NCBI GenBank assembly: GCA_000004985.1
Contig: GG738849.1
Length of the DNA stretch: 64,000 bases
Origin: Naegleria gruberi
Lineage: Eukaryota
Strand: one strand, 5' to 3'
Below the pieces are notes generated by a model. It worked only from the letters and a program-made list of their open reading frames with translations. It was not told the DNA's origin and ran no database searches. This document shows, one piece after another, positions 9,299 through 62,586 of this stretch (position 1 is its first letter; each line of letters begins with the position of its first letter). Made by a program: the position numbers and the translations under genes.

Positions 9299-9878
9299 TT
9301 TTTCGCACTTGATTAGTGTGGGTTCACAGAATGGTGTGTTTCTTTCCCGCTCTACAGTTGTTACAAGAACTGTACTTGGAATGCGTCTACTGACCTCTGC
9401 CACGTCTGGAGATTGGGTTCTTCTTAAAATGTTTAGCAAGATCTGGAATTAATGAGGATACAGAATTAAACCAAGCTCTTTCTTAATTGTTTTTAAAGCA
9501 TAGAAAACAAACATTTAGCACTCTTCTTCAAGTTAGTTTTCTTTTACATTGAAACCGTATTCAATGTTTAATTGTTGATTTTCTGCATGAAGGTTCTTCT
9601 TTCGATTTCTCTTGAAGCCTCAGTAAATCGAAGACTGAAACTTAGAGCTTGTCTCCAAGCATTTAATACAAAGGATTAAGGAATTGTTGAATGTGACTAT
9701 AAAAGAAAGGTTTGGCCGAAAGTGAACCAATAAGAACTCAAACAAAATATAATTGTCAAAACTAATTTTCAATAAGAAACTCCATCATGGAACTCATACA
9801 ATAATAGGCTCAAAAATACAATATATTTTCCCTCAAATAATTTACGGTTGTTTTCTAATTAGTAAGAAGAATAAAAAA

Positions 9879-17107: not shown

Positions 17108-17185
17108 TTAATAATTTTTATTAATAACTGGGAGGTGGTTAGAGCGGTTTGAAAAAGGTTCCCGCTACAAAGTTCTACAAAAAAA

Positions 17186-17628
17186 ATGGAAGACTTGAAA
17201 TTAACGTTCGATGAGGAATATAACTTGAGAGTGTTTGACCCAGCCAAGTTTAGTACTTCCGAGATGATGAAGACCAAATCGGAGGAGTTTGCTTCCAGTA
17301 AGTGTTGTATGGAAGGATTTAATTTAATAATTCATGTGAAGAGATTAAGGATTTTCAGAAACTTGTTGCTGAAGTAATGCAAATATTGAACAATCAGGGG
17401 AAAACAATTGAAGATGAAAAATTAAAAGCCATTGGTATGAGAAATCTTGTTAAAGGGGAGGAGGATCGAAGAAAGAATTTATTGAGAGAATACAACCAAT
17501 TAATAACAGACAAGCACACAGAATTGGAGAGGTATATTGATGAATTGGAGTCGCTGAAAAAAGTTGACCAAGAACAAAAGAAGCTTATTGAAAGATTGAG
17601 CAACAATGAGCCAACAGATTTAGATTAA
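17186..17628 (+). CDS. IFT20: Intraflagellar transport protein 20 (IFT20). Two exons, 17186-17297 and 17342-17628.
   Basis: ATG at 17186 (AAAAAAAATGG). GTAAGT donor at 17298, AG at 17340-41 (44-nt intron). Spliced product MEDLKLTFDEEYNLRVFDPAKF...KIKDFQKLVAEVMQILNNQ...EKLKAIGMRNL...LERYIDELESL aligns along its length with IFT20 (GLHFDELNKLRVLDP...KMKAIGARNLLK...). Confidence 0.7.
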
Positions 17629-18619: not shown

Positions 18620-18908
18620 ATTCACTAGTGGTTTGAGGGAGATAGGAAAACGCCTTATTTTTTTTTAAAGTTTGTTTGACAAACGGTTTAAAGTACATCT
18701 GTAGTCAGAAATGGATTTGGCGCCATTTTCAATATCCCTTGATGGAATCTACTGGTCTTATTAATGTCTGTTCATTTAGGTATTTGAGAACATGATATAT
18801 TTTAATAATTGCTCAAAGACAATTGACTAGTATCATGATGAGAATACAAAACCTCTGAAATGAATATTTGCATACATCTAAGGCAAACTTGAATCACTAT
18901 AAAAAAAA

Positions 18909-23774: not shown

Positions 23775-24779
23775 TTATGAGTAAACCTTCTTTACAATAA
23801 TTCTATCAGATGGATGAGATTTGTTTCCCATTTCCCAAGTATAGGAAACGGCACATGCAAGATATTCACCACTAGTACTAAAAGTCAATACAGCAATGCT
23901 TGTACTATAGGGTGCTGAACGAGAAACCCTCCTCTTCTTATCCTTATCCCAGAACATTAATACACCATCACAACCACCTGTTACAAATATATTTGGATGT
24001 CTTGGATTGAAATCAATAGTATTGACTGGATAGAGTGTTTCTACAGCTTGTTGTCCTGTTTGACTTCTGTGACATTTGAAAGCATAATTCGAATTTGAAT
24101 TGTTAAAGTATTCTACTGCTACTCTTCCTTCAATAGATCCGATAGCATAAGAATTATTGTCACCAAAACACTTGACAACTCTGGTTTGATACTTCAATCC
24201 ACTTTGCTTTCTAATATGTAAGGAGAGAGGTTGATTGGAATCTTTTTGAATATGCACAATGAATATGAGCAAGTCTTGGGATGCTACCACCAATTTAGAT
24301 CCATCAGGAGTGACATCCATGCTGTAGACCTTTTTGGTCAGGTCCAAGGTCTGTATGCATGTATTCTGTTGAGTATCCCAGAGCTTGATTGTTCCATCCC
24401 AACTTCCAGTTATGATTTTCTCTGGTGTTCCAGGAATTGTTGAAATACACTTGATAGCACTCTTGTGAAAATCAGGAAATGTTCCAATCACACTTTGTTC
24501 TCCACTCTTCATATTGTATTTGACCAATTTTCCGTCCAAACCAGCACTAAATGTACACTCCTCACCATTAGAAAAACATCCACACAATACACTTGTCTGA
24601 TGTTCATACTTGGTAACTAAAGAGTTGGATTTGACATTGTAAATTCTAACGGATTTATCCCAACTTGTAACCAGTAGCAAATCATGATTCAAGGTTGAAA
24701 AATTTAGGCTAGAAATGCCATCTGTTGGTGGATCGTGCAAGTCAAAGCCTTCCTCTGTAATGAGTTGTTGTGAAGACAT
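23775..24779 (-). CDS. BUB3: Mitotic checkpoint protein Bub3 (WD40)
   Basis: 334 aa. PPTDGISSLNFS...LLLVTSWDKSVRIYNV, GLKYQTRVVKCF, SIEGRVAVEY, FKCHRS...YPVNTIDFNP...FVTGGCDG all match human BUB3 nearly motif for motif. ATG at 24779. Confidence 0.8.
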   Translation of the reverse strand: MSSQQLITEEGFDLHDPPTDGISSLNFSTLNHDLLLVTSWDKSVRIYNVKSNSLVTKYEHQTSVLCGCFSNGEECTFSAGLDGKLVKYNMKSGEQSVIGTFPDFHKSAIKCISTIPGTPEKIITGSWDGTIKLWDTQQNTCIQTLDLTKKVYSMDVTPDGSKLVVASQDLLIFIVHIQKDSNQPLSLHIRKQSGLKYQTRVVKCFGDNNSYAIGSIEGRVAVEYFNNSNSNYAFKCHRSQTGQQAVETLYPVNTIDFNPRHPNIFVTGGCDGVLMFWDKDKKRRVSRSAPYSTSIAVLTFSTSGEYLACAVSYTWEMGNKSHPSDRIIVKKVYS

Positions 24780-24796: not shown

Positions 24797-24805
24797 TGGC
24801 GGGAA
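24797..24805. promoter_or_regulatory. E2F-like site TGGCGGGAA (TTCCCGCCA on the gene strand) 18-26 nt upstream of the Bub3 ATG
   Basis: GC-rich 9-mer in an AT-rich promoter. Matches the TTTSSCGC / GGCGGGAA E2F consensus. Bub3 is a classic E2F target in other eukaryotes. Confidence 0.35.
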
Positions 24806-29382: not shown

Positions 29383-29441
29383 GCATTAGCAGTGTAACGG
29401 TATCACACCAGCCTTCCAAGCTGGTGACTTTAGGCTAATGC
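29383..29441 (+). other. tRNA-Gly(UCC)-like 59-nt element lacking a T-arm (possible tRNA-derived pseudogene or structured RNA)
   Basis: 7-bp acceptor-like stem GCATTAG/CTAATGC. D-arm-like GTG-AACGGTA-CAC. Perfect anticodon arm CCAGC-CTTCCAA-GCTGG with U33, anticodon TCC, A37. Only 10 nt where the variable loop and T-arm should be. Confidence 0.2.
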
Positions 29442-29510
29442 AAATCCTTTTACTAAAAACCCAAAACATCATTTTAATACTGTTTCTTTTCAAATGTTAG
29501 CATTAATTTA

Positions 29511-30251
29511 TTAAAGAAGAATAGCATTAACAAAATCCATGCCTGTTGGAACTTCAATTCTCTGCCTATTCATATTGGTATTTTTCATTCCTTCTATTGA
29601 GAGAGGATTACAATCTCTGTTGTTCCATCTTTCAAATAGCTTTTTCTTTCTGTATTCTTGATTGACAAGTTTGGATTGAGTCAAAACATGAGCCAATTCC
29701 TTCTCCGATCTCTCTAACTTTTCCTTAAAGCTTGAAGTATCCATAGAGTACAATCGCATAATATCTGCCATGTCAATAGGTTTTGTTTCAATATTAGCAA
29801 GCTTTGGTTGTTCCACTAATTGTAAAACTGGAGAAATCAATGATTCATCCTCTTCCCTTCTAGTATGTTCTTGGACAACTCTACTGGGAGGGGATAACAA
29901 TGATTCATGGCTGTCTTTTCTATTGTTTTTTGGGGGAATTTGTTTCTTCTCTTGTTTTTCTTTTAGGGGTGATGAAACTCTTTCCATCCCACTTTCAACC
30001 TTAACTTCTAGAGCTGGGGTTGAATCCGAAACACCTTCCTTCTGTGTTTGCTTCTCAATAATTGGTTTCCAAAGCCTTCTTCTTGCATTGATAAACCAAT
30101 TGTTCACCTGAACAAGTGTTAGCGAGGTTTCCTCTGCCAAGACAGCCTTCTCCTCTTCCGAAGGATACGGATGTTGAAAGTGTAAAAAAAGCCAATTCTT
30201 CAAATGCTCAACAGCCTCCTTAGGTAATGTACCTCTCGATTGTTTAACCAT
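29511..30251 (-). CDS. TALE-class homeodomain protein (MEIS/KNOX/PBX-like), 246 aa
   Basis: LPKEAVEHLKNWLFLHFQHPYPSEEEKAVLAEETSLTLVQVNNWFINARRRLWKP has a 3-aa loop insertion and the WFINARRR recognition helix diagnostic of TALE homeoboxes. ATG at 30251 (ACAGAAAATGG). Confidence 0.7.
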   Translation of the reverse strand: MVKQSRGTLPKEAVEHLKNWLFLHFQHPYPSEEEKAVLAEETSLTLVQVNNWFINARRRLWKPIIEKQTQKEGVSDSTPALEVKVESGMERVSSPLKEKQEKKQIPPKNNRKDSHESLLSPPSRVVQEHTRREEDESLISPVLQLVEQPKLANIETKPIDMADIMRLYSMDTSSFKEKLERSEKELAHVLTQSKLVNQEYRKKKLFERWNNRDCNPLSIEGMKNTNMNRQRIEVPTGMDFVNAILL

Positions 30252-37518: not shown

Positions 37519-37592
37519 CTACCTTGATTCAGTTTGATTAAATTTATTATTGCGCCAAAATTTAAATAATTTAATTATAATTACTTTAAAAA

Positions 37593-44404: not shown

Positions 44405-44474
44405 AACCGTTTTGTAAATTTTAAAAAACTAACCGTTATAAAAATTTAAATAAATTTCTTTAAATTACGGTAGT
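44405..44474. promoter_or_regulatory. Cluster of Myb/MSA-like AACCGTT(A) motifs (x2) plus TTACGGTAG in the UBE2C-like promoter, 60-130 nt upstream of the ATG
   Basis: ggAACCGTTttg (44405-11), ctAACCGTTAta (44431-37), TTACGGTAG (44466-74). C-Myb/Myb3R sites are YAACGG / CNGTTR. Confidence 0.3.
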
Positions 44475-45238: not shown

Positions 45239-46567
45239 ATGTTACAAGGAGAAAATGGAGCTGGGCAGCAATCATTACACGAAAAGGAAAAACAACGATC
45301 CAGATTAACTACACTGCTCCGACATTTATCACCAAATGTTTTCAAGGTGAAGGAATCAATTAATAATTTACAACAATCATCAAACTCTTCTCTGAACACT
45401 TCCGAATCATCCGAACGTGATAATCCTCAAGAAAATATTCAAAATGAAGAAGATATCATGTTACCAGTGAAGGCTCTCTTCCACAGCATGAAAAATCCAT
45501 CCAATAGAAATTCTCAACAAAATTTTGAAGAGTCTTTTCGTTCTTCTATGAATTCAATGCCCAATAGTGGATTATCAAAAGAGGAAATTAATAAGAAACA
45601 GAACAAGTGGAATATTGGATTTCCTGCAACTGATGTCAAAGCAACCCTATTCTCTCGGGAAATGGAAAGAGTTTACACAAGTACAAAACCACTCAATCCG
45701 AGAAGTGCATTAGTTGAACAGCCAAAGGGTGAACCACCAGATATTGATAAGGTTTTTGGAAGTAAGAAGGGTCAGGGTGGTCACGTTTGCATTGTTGGAC
45801 CAACTGGTTCAGGAAAGTCAACCATTGTGAGAGGTATTCTATGTGAAATGTCTGCTGAAAAGGCATTGGCAATTTATTCATTGGAATATCCTGTTGAAGT
45901 GAATTTACAAACCCACGGCTTGTTTAATGTTTGTCAAATTGATATGTTTCAAGAAATTCAAGGAAAACAAAGATCCCTTGCAGAAACAGCCAATAATTTA
46001 CTCAAACATGATCCAGATATTATCTATTTTGGTGAATTGAGACATAAGGTGGATTTTGAAACAGCAACCTCAATAGCTCTCAGTGGTGTTCAAGTTATCA
46101 GTACAGGACATGCTTCTTCACCAATCGATTTGTTGGAAAGACTAAAGTCAATGAATATTGATTTGAAAACTCAATTCAGAGCTTTCAAATGCATTATGGG
46201 AGTTAAGCGTGTCCCTATTTTATGTCCACATTGTAAGAGAAATATGGTAATTTATGGTAGAACTGATAATAGAGCACTCAAATTGCTGACCATGTATAGA
46301 GTTGTCACCACAGAAAAAGTGAATAGAAGAAAGGAAGTACCCGTAGTTTGCATGCCACCTGAACCATCGAATAGTAAGGGTCAGACATGTCCTCACTGTG
46401 TAAATGGCTACATCAGTAATCATACCATTTATGAGTTTTTATACATTACACCTGAATCTGATATGGAAACACTTCGTAAGAAGCATACTTACACAACAGA
46501 AGAAACCCTTCTGTCCCTCATTATGCAAGGTCAAGTCAATCCAATGTATTTACAGAACAGTGTTTAA
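45239..46567 (+). CDS. gspE: Bacterial-type GspE/PilB/PilT-family (type II secretion / type IV pilus) ATPase homolog, eukaryote-encoded. Candidate mitochondrial T2SS (miT2SS) GspE, C-terminal-domain type.
   Basis: Walker A GPTGSGKST. Asp-box-like LEYPVE (the bacterial consensus is EDPIE). Walker B DIIYFGELRH (cf. GEIRD). His-box region ISTGHASSP. C-terminal tetracysteine CPHC-x50-CPHC, as in GspE. The ~180-aa N-terminus is unrelated low-complexity sequence and an N1E/N2E domain is not evident. ATG at 45239 in AAAAAAATG context; same codon usage and AT-rich flanks as neighbouring genes. Confidence 0.7.
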   Translation: MLQGENGAGQQSLHEKEKQRSRLTTLLRHLSPNVFKVKESINNLQQSSNSSLNTSESSERDNPQENIQNEEDIMLPVKALFHSMKNPSNRNSQQNFEESFRSSMNSMPNSGLSKEEINKKQNKWNIGFPATDVKATLFSREMERVYTSTKPLNPRSALVEQPKGEPPDIDKVFGSKKGQGGHVCIVGPTGSGKSTIVRGILCEMSAEKALAIYSLEYPVEVNLQTHGLFNVCQIDMFQEIQGKQRSLAETANNLLKHDPDIIYFGELRHKVDFETATSIALSGVQVISTGHASSPIDLLERLKSMNIDLKTQFRAFKCIMGVKRVPILCPHCKRNMVIYGRTDNRALKLLTMYRVVTTEKVNRRKEVPVVCMPPEPSNSKGQTCPHCVNGYISNHTIYEFLYITPESDMETLRKKHTYTTEETLLSLIMQGQVNPMYLQNSV

Positions 46568-52951: not shown

Positions 52952-52981
52952 ACTTTGTTTTCTATTCAGTTGAGAGGTTTG

Positions 52982-53003
52982 TTGTTTCCCGCCAATTGGT
53001 TAC
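52982..53003. promoter_or_regulatory. GC-rich E2F-like motif TTGTTTCCCGCCAATTGGTTAC about 100 nt upstream of IFT38; nearly identical to the element at 55076-55098
   Basis: TTTCCCGCC is a perfect E2F consensus and contains a CCAAT. The 22-mer is shared with the Tctex1 upstream region; related GGTTCCCGCTACAA sits at 17157-17170 upstream of IFT20. Confidence 0.35.
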
Positions 53004-53103
53004 AGTCAGTAATTTTCAAAAATACTACAAACAAAAAAAATGTCTTTCAGAGAATTAAGGAGTATGTATTTTATATAGGAGGTGACAATTAATATATATA
53101 CTG

Positions 53104-54501
53104 ATGATGAGTATAGACTTTACCGAGATCATGAGGTCTCTTGGTTATTCGAGAAAGATTTCTGTTGAAAATTTTAGAACACCAAACTATTTGTTAGTCT
53201 CCGAAATTTTGTATTGGCTAGTTCAGAGGTAAGCACTATTTCTTGAAACGTTACTGAATGCAACTCATGTTGACCAATTATAGATACGATCCAAACGTTG
53301 ATATTGTGGAAGGAACAGATACTGTTGAGGAAAGATTAACTTTTTTAAAATCTATTTGTGAAGTTGTAGTATGTTTATTGATTTTGGACTATTTTATTGA
53401 ACATGAAATAATTGTGCTTAGTATTATAAAGCTAGAGTGAAATTAAATATAAAGAGGCTGTATCAAGCAGACGGGTATGCCGTTAAGGAACTGCTCAAAC
53501 TTGCCAAGCTTTTAAATGATGCTACAATTCTTGCTAAATCTGTGGAGGAAAGTGACGATTATGAAACAGCATCTCTCCAACAATTAAATAGCTCCAAGTT
53601 TCAATTAAACGTGAAACAAATCAGAAGCATTGCTACCGAGTTAACTGAACTGGGAGCTGAATTGCACGAACTTTTAGGAAAGGAACTTGAGTTGAAACAA
53701 GAAAGATTGGAAGCAATTTCATTCCCTCACAATATTGAAACAATTAAGGAACATATTGAAAAGAAGAATATTGAAGCCATTGACATGATTTCTGAATTAC
53801 AAAAAAGTATCAATGATCTTAAAAAGGATGAAGACAGTCTCAAAGATAAAAAGAAGAGAAAGGAAACCGAGTTGGAGAGAGCAAAGAAGAGATTGTCTCG
53901 AGTTTCAAACTTCAGACCTGCATTTATGGATGAATATGAACAAAAGGAAACAGATCTCCAAGAATTGTACAGAAAATACGTTGAAAAATATAGAAATATT
54001 GAATATTTGGAGCACGAATTGGAGAAACATAGAAAGGCTGAAGCCGAAATAATTGAGGAAAATAAGCGACGACTCAAATTACTGAGAAAGAAATTGAGAG
54101 CTGATGAAATCAAATATCTCAGCGGTGAAAATCAAGCCACTTATGGTGATGGAGAGGATGATGACGACGACGATGATGATGACGAAGACGATGAGGAAGG
54201 TGATGGAGAGGATGACGATGATGAATCATCAGAAGAAGAACAAGACGAAAGAGAAGTAAAGAGTAGTGCAAGGCCAAGAGCTGCCAGTGGAAGAAGACCA
54301 GAAGGTAGAACAACCACAACAGCTACTGCCAGTAAACCAAATTTAAACGTAGCTCCTTCGAATCAAAAACCACAGATAGCCTCAAGAGAAACACCTGATG
54401 GATATGATTCAGATGAATATGGAGAATCAGAAGAGGAGAGTTCAAATGAAGATAACGAAGAAGAAATGGTTATGGACTCTGAAAATGATGACTCATTCTA
54501 A
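53104..54501 (+). CDS. CLUAP1: Intraflagellar transport protein IFT38 / CLUAP1 (qilin, DYF-3). Exons 53104-53228, 53284-53368, 53422-54501.
   Basis: ATG at 53104. GTAAGC donor at 53229, TTATAG acceptor at 53283. GTATGT donor at 53369, CTTAG acceptor at 53421 (53 nt). Product [50 protein letters not shown]...[20 protein letters not shown]...[39 protein letters not shown] is collinear with human CLUAP1. Acidic (D/E)n tail. Confidence 0.75.
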
Positions 54502-54503
54502 AT

Positions 54504-54924
54504 TTATTCATAAAATAAACCAAATACCATTGCAACACAAGTTAAAGAGCTCTGTAAAGTTGTGTGTAAATAACAATATTTAAAAAAACATACATTTCTA
54601 AAAAATCCAGAAGCATAATTATCTGTCGAAGGATCCCATAAAAACCTAGAGGCAACTCTAATACCTTGGCCAGTTGAGCTAGTAATGACCACTTGAACAA
54701 TAAATTTATATCTTGGGTATCCACTCTTTTTCAAAAGATCCAAAATTTTAGTACTCAATTCCTTAGATCTAGTCACACTGTGATTAGCATCATATTCCTC
54801 ATTTTCCAATTCGGTTTTTAAGAAATCTGAAATCTTTTCCTCAACATCCAATTTTACAAACCTAAATAATTTAATTATTCATCTTATCGGAATCAACTTA
54901 CTTTTGACCTTCTTTTGGTTTCAT
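54504..54924 (-). CDS. DYNLT: Tctex1-family dynein light chain (DYNLT). Exons 54924-54902, 54861-54594, 54551-54504.
   Basis: ATG at 54924 (MKPKEGQK). GTAAGT donor (plus acttac 54896-54901) with a 40-nt intron. A second 42-nt intron (GTATGT...TTTACAG; plus 54552-54593) is in-frame and stop-free, so the track reads through it. Spliced 113-aa product has RYKFIVQVVITSSTGQGIRVASRFLWDPSTDNYASGFFRN-SSLTCVAMVFGLFYE, matching the Tctex1 C-terminal domain. Confidence 0.7.
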
Positions 54925-55075
54925 GTGGAACGACTGGACGGGATGAGCATTAAGAATAAAACACTTACGTTTGGAAAGATTTCCTCTTGTATACCATTTT
55001 CTGTATGGGTTTGGATATGAATGCTGTCCATCTTGATTTATTTACAGGGTGCTATGTATTCTCAATTTTTTTAAT

Positions 55076-55098
55076 TTGTTTGCCGCCAAAATTGTTAC
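55076..55098. promoter_or_regulatory. GC-rich motif TTGTTTGCCGCCAAAATTGTTAC in the Tctex1 upstream region; paralogous to the IFT38 motif
   Basis: 20 of 22 positions are shared with 52982-53003 (TTGTTT[C/G]CCGCCAA..TGTTAC). Lies about 155-175 nt upstream of the Tctex1 ATG (minus-strand gene). Confidence 0.3.
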
Positions 55099-55147
55099 TG
55101 ATACGTACAACAACAAAAAACAGTCCAAAGTTGTATTTTTATTGTAT

Positions 55148-56143
55148 TTACATGAATTTAGGATTGATATATCGTCCATATCGATTATCTTCTGAGAAAC
55201 TACTCGGTGAGGGTGAACTATTATTGTAAGTGTCCATTTCAGAAATTGGTTTGAATGAGGATGAAGAAGGAGCATTCCTATCATAATAATGTCTGCTACT
55301 TTCCGTTTGAAATCTGACACCATTAGTGGAGTATTCTGATGGAGGAAAATGTCCTCGAGGTGGAGGTGGATAATGTTTGTATTGATGAGATTGTTGTTGA
55401 TCGTGGTAGTATGTAGGTGATTGAGGACCAACTGGTTTAAATGATGAGCTACCACTATACGAGTAAGGATCTCTTCTAGAAGATGGTGGTACTTGGTATG
55501 AATCTTGGTGGTGATATTGACCTCTCGATCCTTGTTGGTCAAACATTGGAGGATAAGGTGAAGAAACTGGCTTGTAAATAGGTTGTTGATAAGGTGGAAT
55601 TTGAGGGCTACCGTATCTTGCGTTTCTCGAATTATCAGGAGCAAGAAGTATTCGTTTGGCTTGATTGAGTAATTCGTCTCTTCTTTGTGAACTTGTTGAT
55701 GCTTGATAGAGAGCTTCCGAGAGTGGAGGGAAAAACATATTATAGTCTGTTTGAGTCATGGCTGTTGATGTCTCTATCGGAGGTTGTTGATTTGAGGGTG
55801 ATGATGAATTTTCCTTCTTTTGTTTTTCCTCAACTTTTGATGAGATTACTTTTCCATTTTCCTTATCAATTGTAAGGGAAATATTTAAAAGTCCATCTCC
55901 ATCATTATTACTCTTCTTTGATTTCTTTTTTGATGATCGGGGAGTTTCGTCCTCTTCCTCTTCACTTTCCTCATCACTTCCTTCCTCCGAGCCTTCATCA
56001 CTATCTTCCTCTTCACTACCATCTTCCTCCTCACTACCCTCCTCACTATCATCGGATCCTTCATCATCGTCACTACCAGATTCCTCTTCTTCTGATTCTT
56101 CCTCTTCTGATTCATCAGATTCCTCTTCCTTCCTTCTTGGCAT
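55148..56143 (-). CDS. Low-complexity protein: acidic (E/S/D)n N-terminal half and P/Y/Q/S-rich C-terminal half
   Basis: 331-aa ORF from the ATG at 56143 (the track start is TTG). (GAA/GAT/TCA)n microsatellites. PY-rich motifs (PPYQQPIYKP, PPPPRGHFPP). Confidence 0.35.
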   Translation of the reverse strand: MPRRKEEESDESEEEESEEEESGSDDDEGSDDSEEGSEEEDGSEEEDSDEGSEEGSDEESEEEEDETPRSSKKKSKKSNNDGDGLLNISLTIDKENGKVISSKVEEKQKKENSSSPSNQQPPIETSTAMTQTDYNMFFPPLSEALYQASTSSQRRDELLNQAKRILLAPDNSRNARYGSPQIPPYQQPIYKPVSSPYPPMFDQQGSRGQYHHQDSYQVPPSSRRDPYSYSGSSSFKPVGPQSPTYYHDQQQSHQYKHYPPPPRGHFPPSEYSTNGVRFQTESSRHYYDRNAPSSSSFKPISEMDTYNNSSPSPSSFSEDNRYGRYINPKFM

Positions 56144-56266
56144 TTTTTTGTAGTTGAATTTTGGCGCCACCAATCCAAGTAATTCACAATATTTCCATAC
56201 AATGAATTCAAGACTGAATAATAATAATTGAAAATGTTGAGTTAAAATAATGATAAAATAAATAAT

Positions 56267-58922: not shown

Positions 58923-59432
58923 ATCTCTTTTATTTATTAACAAATCTCTTTCAATTAGACTTCATGACTATCAAACAATCAAATACCATTTACTTTGATA
59001 AGTTTGATTCAGTAATGGTCAATCCAATGTCCAAATACTTTCTCTAATTCCTTACTCAAATCTTGTCAATTTTCTTGTCAAAATATTACCAAACTACAAG
59101 ACAGTAACTTTAATAAAGGAGATTTAATTATTTATTAGTTTGAATGACCATCTTTGAAACAACACGGTAATTAACATTGAATTCACTTAAGGAAGTACAA
59201 TAACCGTTTTATCAAAAAGGACGTAATATTAAATTTAAACTATTTAAAAATAGATTAAAAAAATACAAGCAAACAACAAGTAATTGGCGCCTTTACTTTG
59301 AAAATAGGCAGTTGATTGTAGACTAGACATCAAAAAAACATCATCACACACAACTACCACCTCTCGGATAGTTTTTGTATTAAAGAGAAGAGGAATTTTT
59401 GATAGGATTTGTAAATATATTGTCATCTTTGA

Positions 59433-62444: not shown

Positions 62445-62586
62445 TTTTTTTAAAATGATAACGTTCATCTTTTCAAAAAACAGCCTTAATGGCGGGAGCT
62501 TCAAGTAACGACTGACTGAATAAATCCGTAAAACACTGTATACACATTATGAAATGGAAGAATTTGAAGGGAAATCAGGAATTTCT

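What the first reader, a model, noticed from the sequence alone, without database searches (positions are those of the whole stretch)
52982..55098. Shared about 22-nt GC-rich element (TTGTTT[C/G]CCGCCAA..TGTTAC) upstream of two flagellar genes, with related TTCCCGC cores at IFT20 and Bub3
In a 33%-GC background, the near-identical GC-rich sequences at 52982-53003 (upstream of IFT38) and 55076-55098 (upstream of the Tctex1 dynein light chain) are unlikely to arise by chance. A related GGTTCCCGCTACAA lies 16-29 nt upstream of IFT20 (17157-17170), and TTCCCGCCA is 18-26 nt upstream of Bub3 (24797-24805 on the opposite strand). The core matches the E2F consensus TTTSSCGC. It may be the cis-element that co-induces flagellar and basal-body genes during the amoeba-to-flagellate transition, possibly using cell-cycle (E2F/DP) machinery, since centrioles are assembled de novo.
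Basis: seen in the sequence. Interest (0 to 1): 0.7.

Follow-up and report, generated by a model that had tools for sequence, protein, structure and literature searches.

The report
E2F-like promoter element at Naegleria flagellar genes
A short GC-rich DNA motif that looks like the binding site of the cell-cycle transcription factor E2F lies just upstream of three flagellum-building genes of the amoeba Naegleria gruberi, is kept at the same genes in related species, and so is a testable candidate for the unknown switch that turns flagellar genes on.

Summary
The window is Naegleria gruberi NEG-M. TTTCCCGCCAA (52985-52995) lies 45-55 nt upstream of IFT38/Cluap1. TTTGCCGCCAA (55079-55089) lies 48-58 nt upstream of Tctex1, on the opposite strand. 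Weaker TTCCCGC cores lie upstream of IFT20 and a Bub3-like gene.

The real element is the roughly 11-nt core, consensus TTTSSCGCCA, which matches the E2F site. The 22-mer is not supported, because the GTTAC tail is neither enriched nor conserved.

All 6 strict and 8 of 10 relaxed matches fall within 150 nt upstream of start codons, which is 8.7% of the window (P about 1e-7). The core is retained upstream of IFT38, Tctex1 and IFT20 in N. fowleri, and upstream of IFT20 in two metagenomic Naegleria relatives, within otherwise unalignable DNA.

Across 99 promoters it occurs at 9 of 10 flagellar genes and 13 of 89 others. N. gruberi encodes E2F, DP, DEL and RB, and the E2F recognition segment is identical to human E2F4.

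A second sense-strand element, CTACA(A/G)A, lies just before the ATG at 7 of 10 flagellar promoters and 1 of 89 others.

E2F binding and induction during differentiation are untested. CDK1 (N. fowleri) and UBE2C lack the motif.

The parts
52985..52995 (+). E2F-like site TTTCCCGCCAA, 45-55 nt upstream of the IFT38/Cluap1 ATG (53040). It lies in an 88-nt spacer after the stop codon of the DUF3522 gene.
   Evidence: The orthologous N. fowleri site is TTGCCGCCAAAA, about 24-35 nt upstream.
55079..55090 (+). E2F-like site TTTGCCGCCAAA, 48-59 nt upstream of the Tctex1 ATG (55031, minus strand). It is inverted relative to the gene and lies in a 116-nt spacer.
   Evidence: The N. fowleri orthologue has TTTTGGCGCCAATT 93-104 nt upstream.
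17159..17166 (+). Weaker E2F-like core TTCCCGCT, about 20-27 nt upstream of the IFT20 ATG (17186).
   Evidence: Orthologous promoters carry TTTGCCGCC (species Y), TTCCCGCC (species X) and ATGGCGCCAT (N. fowleri).
24798..24805 (-). E2F-like core TTCCCGCC, 19-26 nt upstream of the Bub3-like WD40 gene (ATG 24779).
   Evidence: Conservation could not be tested.
9343..9350 (+). E2F-like site TTTCCCGC, 45-52 nt upstream of the ABCG transporter gene (ATG 9298, minus strand). It is inverted relative to the gene.
18716..18724 (+). Near-palindromic site TTTGGCGCC in the divergent spacer between gene 62978 (ATG 18619, minus strand; about 100 nt away) and an actin-related gene (ATG 18909; about 185 nt away).
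37552..37559 (-). E2F-like site TTTGGCGC, 34-41 nt upstream of an unknown 237-aa gene (ATG 37593, plus strand).
56160..56168 (+). Site TTTGGCGCC, 17-25 nt upstream of an unknown acidic-protein gene (ATG 56143, minus strand). This gene also carries CTACAAA.
62491..62498 (-). Degenerate core CTCCCGCC, 23-30 nt upstream of an unknown 661-aa gene (ATG 62468).
59284..59291 (+). Orphan TTGGCGCC in intergenic DNA, about 240 nt upstream of the ATG101 start. It has no adjacent start codon.
17165..17181 (+). Two copies of the sense-strand element CTACAAA (17165-17171 and 17175-17181) between the E2F-like core and the IFT20 ATG.
   Evidence: Conserved in species X, species Y and Willaertia IFT20.
53025..53031 (+). 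CTACAAA, 9-15 nt upstream of the IFT38 ATG.
   Evidence: ACTACAAA aligns with the N. fowleri orthologue.
56147..56153 (-). CTACAAA on the sense (minus) strand, 4-10 nt upstream of the ATG of the unknown acidic-protein gene.
53040..54501 (+). IFT38/Cluap1 gene (NAEGRDRAFT_62998), four exons.
54504..55031 (-). Tctex1-type dynein light chain gene, tail-to-tail with IFT38.
   Evidence: The same arrangement occurs in N. fowleri and in a metagenomic relative.
17186..17628 (+). IFT20 gene, two exons.
23775..24779 (-). Bub3-like WD40 gene (NAEGRDRAFT_62982).

Best explanation
The element is a roughly 11-bp double-stranded DNA site, consensus TTTSSCGCCA(A/T). It sits in the very short promoters of a subset of Naegleria genes, usually 20-105 nt upstream of the ATG. 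It works in either orientation and is often palindromic.

It is most likely bound by the organism's E2F-family winged-helix factors. These are the single E2F-DP heterodimer under RB control, and/or the two-domain atypical E2F called DEL.

It is preferentially attached to flagellar-assembly genes (IFT20, IFT38, Tctex1, and a CFAP74-like gene in Willaertia). At most of these genes it is paired with a sense-strand CTACA(A/G)A element directly before the A-rich start region, which is probably an initiator or 5'-UTR element. Together these would give a class of promoters that can be switched as a block when the amoeba turns into a flagellate.

Shown here:
- the sequence and its promoter-proximal enrichment;
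- retention at orthologous genes in three to four species;
- preferential occurrence at flagellar genes in a small sample;
- presence of E2F, DP, DEL and RB with a conserved recognition helix.

Inferred:
- that E2F-family proteins bind it;
- whether it activates or represses;
- that it times expression to differentiation.
For: 1. Match to E2F. There are 6 strict TTTSSCGC hits against 1.38 expected. The matrix of 18 promoter sites has, at positions that were not used for selection, T 16/18 and 11/18 on the 5' side and C 13/18 and A 15/18 on the 3' side. This gives TTTSSCGCCA. Variation among orthologous sites (CC, GC, GG) falls on the degenerate SS positions.

2. Promoter location. 6 of 6 strict and 8 of 10 relaxed hits lie within 150 nt upstream of an ATG (P about 1e-7). 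TCCCGC is the only GC-containing 6-mer among the top upstream-enriched words.

3. Conservation in otherwise unalignable DNA. The site is present at N. fowleri IFT38, Tctex1 and IFT20, and at IFT20 of species X and species Y. The per-promoter chance under dinucleotide shuffling is 0.01-0.1, and the product over the five promoters is about 1.5e-8.

4. Association with flagellar genes. The site occurs at 9 of 10 flagellar against 13 of 89 other promoters (Fisher 2.5e-6; orthologues are not independent). In N. fowleri alone the figures are 3 of 3 against 2 of 42 (7e-4).

5. Orientation independence. Tctex1 and ABCG carry the site inverted, and there are palindromic TTTTGGCGCCAA sites in divergent promoters. 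This argues for recognition of double-stranded DNA.

6. Cognate factors. NgruE2F, DP, DEL and RB appear in the Medina et al. 2016 source data (PMC4862756). They are exact matches to NAEGRDRAFT_54558, 50903 and 71591. Pfam finds E2F_TDP, CC-MB and DP domains. The E2F DNA-binding domain hits human E2F4 in its DNA complex 1CF7 at E 7e-25, and the segment [27 protein letters not shown] is identical.

7. Precedents. E2F4/5 with MCIDAS/GEMC1 drives the multiciliated-cell programme (PMC12183034). Giardia E2F1 is an encystation-induced activator whose sites sit next to AT-rich initiators (PMC7866390).
Against: - No binding or expression data could be obtained. The differentiation microarray and RNA-seq tables are not held.
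- The motif also precedes genes with no known flagellar role (ABCG transporter, secreted/TM protein 62978, three unknown genes, N. fowleri PDEase).
- Two classical cell-cycle genes lack it: N. fowleri-type CDK1 (445-nt upstream region) and N. gruberi UBE2C. No S-phase gene was in the sample, so the canonical E2F regulon could not be checked.
- Willaertia IFT20 has no such site within 150 nt.
- The N. fowleri IFT20 site (ATGGCGCCAT) fits only the relaxed definition.
- CTACA(A/G)A is more specific to flagellar genes than the E2F-like core, so the class-specific signal could be that element.
Confidence: 0.58

Rival explanations
1. The element is a functional, conserved promoter element, but it is bound by a factor other than E2F. 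Candidates are a lineage-specific factor or a GC-box/zinc-finger-type factor. On this view the resemblance to TTTSSCGC is coincidental.
For: - CCCGCC/GGCGGG is also the core of GC boxes.
- No binding data exist.
- CDK1 and UBE2C lack the motif.
- The 2025 review states that the factors for Naegleria cilia genes are unknown.
Against: - A GC-box reading does not cover the GGCGCC/TTTGGCGCCAAA variants, which interchange with CCCGCC at orthologous genes (Tctex1 and IFT20).
- The flanking T-run and CA/AA preference fits E2F specifically.
- The E2F recognition helix is fully conserved in N. gruberi.
Confidence: 0.2
2. The element is a generic core-promoter or housekeeping GC element, possibly an ordinary E2F site, used by 10-20% of genes. 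It has no special relation to flagella. That all three flagellar genes carry it is a sampling accident.
For: - About 15% of non-flagellar promoters carry it.
- The genes were picked post hoc.
- Willaertia has a high background (5 of 11 promoters, partly from shared divergent promoters).
Against: - There is an independent replication in N. fowleri (3 of 3 against 2 of 42, P 7e-4).
- The site is retained at IFT20 in four species.
- A further flagellar gene (CFAP74-like) in Willaertia carries it.
- It co-occurs with CTACA(A/G)A.
Confidence: 0.13
3. The element acts at the RNA level. It would be a 5'-UTR signal that controls translation or the known rapid turnover of flagellar mRNAs, not a DNA binding site.
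For: - The sites lie only 20-55 nt from the ATG in N. gruberi.
- Transcription start sites are unknown.
- CTACA(A/G)A is strictly on the sense strand and at a fixed position, so that element could be transcribed.
Against: - The E2F-like core occurs in both orientations relative to the gene. It is inverted at Tctex1 and ABCG.
- It is often palindromic and is shared by divergent gene pairs.
- Its distance from the ATG varies from about 20 to 105 nt between orthologues.
Confidence: 0.06
4. The similarity arose by chance, or the two 22-mers are copies from a local duplication or a repeat family.
For: The two best sites are 2.1 kb apart, in the same plus-strand orientation, and share TTG on the 5' side and GTTAC on the 3' side.
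Against: - Flanks do not align.
- The exact 11-mer occurs only twice.
- Enrichment and positional bias are strong.
- The orthologous sites in N. fowleri differ from each other and lack the flanks.
- GTTAC is not enriched.
Confidence: 0.03

Closest known systems
Canonical E2F-DP sites (TTTSSCGC, including the plant-type TTTCCCGCC and the palindromic TTTGGCGCCAAA) in cell-cycle promoters of animals and plants
   Same: - Same consensus, including the degenerate SS positions, the T-run and the CCAA flank.
- Close to the start of the gene.
- Orientation-independent.
- The cognate E2F, DP, DEL and RB are present, with an identical recognition segment.
   Different: - The genes are intraflagellar-transport and dynein light-chain genes, not S-phase genes.
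- No replication gene was in the sample.
- CDK1 and UBE2C lack the site.
- Binding has not been shown.
E2F4/5-DP1 with MCIDAS/GEMC1 in vertebrate multiciliated cells (as reviewed in PMC12183034)
   Same: E2F-family factors are used outside the division cycle to drive mass or de novo basal-body production and a ciliogenesis programme. This is what a Naegleria amoeba has to do.
   Different: - In vertebrates E2F acts mainly on centriole-biogenesis genes and on FOXJ1/RFX, which then activate IFT and axonemal genes. Here the site sits directly on IFT genes.
- RFX and FOXJ1 are absent from Naegleria.
- Whether any MCIDAS/GEMC1-like co-activator exists in Naegleria was not examined.
Giardia lamblia E2F1, an encystation-induced activator of cyst-wall-protein genes (PMC7866390)
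   Same: - A protist uses an E2F-family factor for a differentiation programme.
- The sites lie in short promoters directly next to AT-rich initiators.
   Different: - The target programme is different (cyst wall, not flagella).
- Giardia E2F1 binding was shown experimentally, whereas here it is inferred.
RFX X-box and FOXJ1 sites, the cilia-gene cis-elements of animals
   Same: Proposed function: a short promoter-proximal motif shared by cilia genes that allows them to be induced as a block.
   Different: - The sequence is unrelated. The X-box is a GTNRCC...RGYAAC palindrome.
- The factor family is unrelated.
- The factors are absent from Naegleria.

Membership tests
E2F-responsive promoter element (E2F/DP or atypical-E2F binding site) | DNA sequence matching TTTSSCGC, optimally the palindrome TTTSGCGCSAAA. 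| tested here: met
   There are 6 strict and 4 further relaxed matches in the window. The matrix of 18 promoter sites gives TTTSSCGCCA.
E2F-responsive promoter element (E2F/DP or atypical-E2F binding site) | Located in the proximal promoter and functional in either orientation. | tested here: met
   Location: 6 of 6 strict and 8 of 10 relaxed hits lie within 150 nt upstream of an ATG. Both orientations and shared divergent promoters are seen. Function in either orientation is inferred, not measured.
E2F-responsive promoter element (E2F/DP or atypical-E2F binding site) | The genome encodes E2F-family proteins with the conserved RRXYD DNA-contact motif. | tested here: met
   N. gruberi E2F, DP and DEL sequences (PMC4862756) are present in the protein collection. 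Pfam finds E2F_TDP in each. The E2F domain matches human E2F4 of PDB 1CF7 with an identical recognition segment.
E2F-responsive promoter element (E2F/DP or atypical-E2F binding site) | Physical occupancy by E2F-family proteins (EMSA, DAP-seq, ChIP). | not testable with these tools
   This needs an experiment.
E2F-responsive promoter element (E2F/DP or atypical-E2F binding site) | Presence at canonical cell-cycle or S-phase target genes of the same organism. | tested here: inconclusive
   The Bub3-like gene has it. N. fowleri-type CDK1 and N. gruberi UBE2C do not. No replication gene was sampled. N. gruberi loci for E2F, DEL and the cyclins could not be fetched.
Cilia/flagella gene regulon element (functional class, such as the X-box) | Enriched upstream of flagellar genes relative to other genes. 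| tested here: met
   The site occurs at 9 of 10 against 13 of 89 promoters, and in N. fowleri alone at 3 of 3 against 2 of 42. The sample is small, orthologues are not independent, and there is no genome-wide test.
Cilia/flagella gene regulon element (functional class, such as the X-box) | Motif-bearing genes are co-induced during ciliogenesis or differentiation. | not tested
   The expression tables of Fritz-Laylin and Cande 2010 and Kennard et al. are not held.
RFX X-box | Imperfect palindrome GTNRCC-N(0-3)-RGYAAC, with RFX factors encoded in the genome. | tested here: not met
   By my own reading of the sequence (no scan was run), the sites have no second half-site. The review reports that RFX and FOXJ1 are absent from Naegleria (PMC12183034).

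The most novel reading that the evidence does not exclude
The E2F-DP/RB module, or the atypical E2F DEL, is the master transcriptional switch of the amoeba-to-flagellate transition in Heterolobosea. It would act directly on IFT, dynein and axonemal genes through a bipartite promoter: an E2F site plus the CTACA(A/G)A initiator-like element. If so, the link between E2F factors and centriole or cilium biogenesis, known from vertebrate multiciliated cells, is ancient or convergently favoured, not a vertebrate invention.
Probability: 0.25. Interest if true: 0.85.

Novelty: new variant of a known kind. Interest (0 to 1): 0.62.

Why it matters
Naegleria builds basal bodies and flagella from nothing within about an hour, with a burst of transcription. 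A 2025 review states that the transcription factors responsible are unknown, because RFX, FOXJ1 and XAP5 are all absent (PMC12183034).

A conserved E2F-type site on IFT and dynein light-chain genes names a concrete candidate factor family. That family has only one E2F, one DP, one DEL and one RB gene. The finding also gives a second candidate element, CTACA(A/G)A. The question therefore becomes directly testable with existing RNA-seq data, DAP-seq or EMSA, and start-site mapping.

It would also bear on whether the use of E2F in ciliogenesis is older than animals. In addition it predicts new flagellar or differentiation genes, such as the unknown acidic protein at 55148-56143, which carries both elements.

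Tried and rejected
1. Expression test. PMC2987438 and PMC11753955 are not held, and the preprint PMC10802493 has no held supplements and does not mention IFT, Bub3 or E2F. Timing of expression could not be checked.

2. A chimeric query of four window proteins to fetch several N. fowleri orthologues at once returned nothing. There were 8000 low-complexity candidates and none scored. One search was wasted.

3. Bub3 conservation. Two metagenome scans found only distant Bub3 genes, at most 44% identical, and no Naegleria relative.

4. Fetching N. gruberi loci failed, because gene positions of this assembly are not on record. N. fowleri CDK1 was used instead.

5. Identifying the unknown motif-bearing proteins. 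A phmmer search of eight unknown proteins against the PDB gave no ciliary or axonemal match. Only gene 46154 hit anything, a hydratase fold.

6. The 3' GTTAC part of the 22-mer was rejected. It is not enriched and not conserved.

7. A Myb/MSA-like AACGG element as a mitotic-gene signal was seen at UBE2C and at N. fowleri CDK1. It is not enriched upstream (3 of 29), so it remains anecdotal.

8. The X-box/RFX reading was rejected (see the membership test).

9. Reading the WD40 gene as Rae1: the PDB best hit is Rae1 at 146 bits, but the alignment to recalled human BUB3 scores higher at 228 bits.

10. A tRNA or other RNA gene under the sites was excluded. ARAGORN found none, and Rfam found only one unrelated hit.
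Full report
**Source and gene map.** Exact protein look-ups show that the window comes from an 850,158-bp scaffold of Naegleria gruberi NEG-M. The window is 34% GC. Pfam scans of the long ORFs give about 39 genes.
- IFT38/Cluap1 spans 53040-54501 on the plus strand (E 3e-53).
- A Tctex-1 dynein light chain spans 54504-55031 on the minus strand (E 9e-25).
- IFT20 spans 17186-17628 on the plus strand (E 8e-22).
- A WD40 gene spans 23775-24779 on the minus strand. It aligns end to end with human BUB3 (sequence recalled from memory) at 39% identity and 228 bits. That is better than its match to Rae1 in the PDB (146 bits).

Start codons almost always sit in an AAAAAATG context.

**Checking the observation.**
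- The IFT38 element (52985-52995, TTTCCCGCCAA) lies 45-55 nt upstream of the ATG. It sits in an 88-nt spacer.
- The Tctex1 element (55079-55090, TTTGCCGCCAAA) lies 48-59 nt upstream of a gene on the minus strand. It is therefore inverted relative to its gene, and it sits in a 116-nt spacer.
- TTTSSCGC occurs six times against 1.38 expected, and no shuffle out of 100 reached six.
- The exact 11-mer TTTSCCGCCAA occurs only at these two places.

**The element is promoter-bound.** I compiled 39 start codons. All six strict matches and eight of ten relaxed matches (TTSSCGC) fall within 150 nt upstream of a start codon. That zone is 8.7% of the window and has only 28.7% GC (binomial P 4e-7 and 1e-7). 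Looser definitions of the core give the same picture.

In an unbiased scan for words enriched upstream, everything in the top fifteen 6-mers is A/T-rich except TCCCGC, which has 5 of its 6 occurrences upstream.

- an ABCG transporter (9343);
- gene 62978, in a spacer shared with a divergent actin-related gene (18716);
- an unknown 237-aa gene (37552);
- an unknown acidic protein (56160);
- in degenerate form, an unknown 661-aa gene (62491).

One site (59284) has no nearby start codon.

**What is constrained.** Eighteen promoter sites from three species were aligned on SSCGC. At positions not used for selection they show T at -2 (16/18) and -3 (11/18), and C (13/18) then A (15/18) on the 3' side. 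The consensus is TTTSSCGCCA(A/T). This is the E2F consensus, including the plant-type TTTCCCGCC and the palindromic TTTGGCGCCAA forms (established knowledge of the family).

GTTAC is not enriched upstream (8 of 73, P 0.3), and neither the 5' TTG nor GTTAC appears at the orthologous sites.

**Conservation.** The N. fowleri IFT38 orthologue was found by homology search and its locus was fetched. IFT38 and Tctex1 are again tail-to-tail there. Upstream of N. fowleri IFT38 is TTGCCGCCAAAA, about 24-35 nt from the ATG. Upstream of N. fowleri Tctex1 is TTTTGGCGCCAATT, 93-104 nt from the ATG.

IFT20 orthologues and their upstream DNA were obtained for N. fowleri, Willaertia magna and two metagenomic Naegleria relatives. 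The IFT20 sites are:
- N. gruberi: TTCCCGCT;
- species Y: TTTGCCGCC;
- species X: TTCCCGCC;
- N. fowleri: ATGGCGCCAT.

Around the sites the DNA does not align. Under dinucleotide-preserving shuffles each promoter has a 1-10% chance of carrying such a core. The product over the five non-gruberi promoters is about 1.5e-8. The differences between orthologous sites fall on the two degenerate S positions of the E2F consensus.

Willaertia IFT20 has no site within 150 nt upstream. Its spacer to the divergent Snapin gene is only 38 nt. A CFAP74/HYDIN-like flagellar gene 0.8 kb away has TTCCCGCGC 26 nt upstream.

**Specificity.** I counted 99 promoters: 39 from N. gruberi, 45 from N. fowleri over four loci, 13 from Willaertia, and two from the metagenomic relatives. 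The core lies within 150 nt upstream of 9 of 10 flagellar promoters and 13 of 89 others (Fisher 2.5e-6). N. fowleri alone, which serves as a replication, gives 3 of 3 against 2 of 42 (7e-4). The window alone gives 3 of 3 against 6 of 36 (0.009).

Two caveats apply. Orthologues are not independent, and the gene families were chosen after the fact. The effective sample is three or four gene families.

**A second element.** CTACA(A/G)A lies on the sense strand 9-21 nt before the ATG at:
- N. gruberi IFT20 (two copies) and IFT38;
- N. fowleri IFT38;
- IFT20 of species X, species Y and Willaertia;
- the Willaertia CFAP74-like gene.

That is 7 of 10 flagellar promoters against 1 of 89 others (6e-8). 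The single other promoter belongs to the unknown acidic protein at 55148-56143, which also has an E2F-like site. The strict orientation and fixed position of this element suggest an initiator or 5'-UTR element. Tctex1 lacks it in both species.

**Are the factors there?** The source data of Medina et al. 2016 (PMC4862756) contain one N. gruberi E2F, one DP, one DEL (E2F7/8 type) and one RB.
- The E2F, DP and DEL sequences are exact matches to NAEGRDRAFT_54558, 50903 and 71591.
- Pfam finds E2F_TDP plus CC-MB in the E2F, E2F_TDP plus DP in the DP, and two E2F_TDP domains in DEL.
- The E2F DNA-binding domain matches human E2F4 of the DNA complex 1CF7 (E 7e-25). The recognition stretch [27 protein letters not shown] is identical.

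Canonical specificity is therefore expected. This is an inference.

**Cell-cycle side.** Only the Bub3-like gene links the motif to the cell cycle. N. fowleri-type CDK1 has no site in 445 nt of upstream DNA. N. gruberi UBE2C has none either. No replication gene was in any fetched locus. N. gruberi loci for E2F, DEL and the cyclins could not be retrieved. Membership in the class of E2F sites that control the cell cycle therefore remains inconclusive.

**Literature.** No paper in the held library connects an E2F motif with Naegleria flagellar genes.
- A 2025 review states that RFX, FOXJ1 and XAP5 are absent from Naegleria and that the factors are unknown (PMC12183034).
- The same review summarises the use of E2F4/5 with MCIDAS/GEMC1 in vertebrate multiciliated cells.
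- In Giardia, E2F1 is an encystation-induced activator with sites next to AT-rich initiators (PMC7866390).

**Conclusion.** In the accessible sample it is preferentially attached to flagellar-assembly genes, and it is usually combined with a second element, CTACA(A/G)A.

Three things remain inference: that E2F-DP or DEL binds it, whether it activates or represses, and whether it times expression to differentiation. My estimates are:
- about 0.9 that this is a functional cis-element;
- about 0.6 that it is bound by E2F-family proteins;
- about 0.4 that it is a main driver of flagellar-gene induction.

Noticed in passing
window 17165-17181, 53025-53031, 56147-56153; L001 ~9536; L004 ~9180 and ~9990; L007 ~313; L010 ~114: The sense-strand element CTACA(A/G)A lies 9-21 nt before the ATG at 7 of 10 flagellar promoters and 1 of 89 others. 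It is conserved at IFT20 and IFT38 across species. It may be an initiator or 5'-UTR element of a flagellar promoter class.
   Followed up: partly
window 55148-56143 (minus strand): An unknown protein with an acidic, Ser-rich N-terminus and a P/Q/Y-rich tail has no Pfam or PDB match. It carries both an E2F-like site (56160) and CTACAAA (56147). It is therefore predicted to be co-regulated with the flagellar genes.
   Followed up: no
window 53040-55031; L001 9548-11677; L002: The tail-to-tail IFT38-Tctex1 gene pair is conserved in N. gruberi, N. fowleri and a metagenomic relative. The surrounding gene order is not conserved.
   Followed up: partly
window 45239-46567 (plus strand): A eukaryotic gene for a bacterial-type type II secretion ATPase (Pfam T2SSE; NCBI name 'type II secretion system protein E'). 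From memory, this is the GspE component of the mitochondrial T2SS-derived system described in Naegleria.
   Followed up: no
window 29383-29442 (plus strand): An Rfam tRNA hit (37 bits, 60 nt) lies in the spacer upstream of the P-type ATPase gene. ARAGORN did not call it.
   Followed up: no
window 44427-44445 (upstream of UBE2C, ATG 44535); L095 ~9830: The palindrome TAACCGTTA lies about 100 nt upstream of UBE2C. TAACGG (on the opposite strand) lies upstream of N. fowleri-type CDK1. Both resemble the Myb/MSA core AACGG of mitotic genes. The word is not enriched upstream in the window (3 of 29).
   Followed up: partly
window 59284-59291: An orphan TTGGCGCC site lies in a roughly 600-nt gene-free stretch, about 240 nt upstream of ATG101. 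It may mark an unannotated transcript.
   Followed up: no
L001 6262-6290; L004 2190-2205 and 12190-12205: Full palindromic sites (TTTTGGCGCCAATT, TTTTTGGCGCAAAAA) sit in the middle of divergent promoters: PDEase/FHA in N. fowleri, and unk423/cyclase and SUN/proteasome-alpha in Willaertia.
   Followed up: no
window 29511-30251 (minus strand): A TALE-class (Homeobox_KN) homeodomain gene. CTACAAA lies 125 nt upstream of it.
   Followed up: no
window 52952-53039 and 55032-55147: The complete intergenic spacers upstream of IFT38 and Tctex1 are only 88 and 116 nt long. The promoters must be extremely compact, or must overlap the 3' ends of the neighbouring genes.
   Followed up: no
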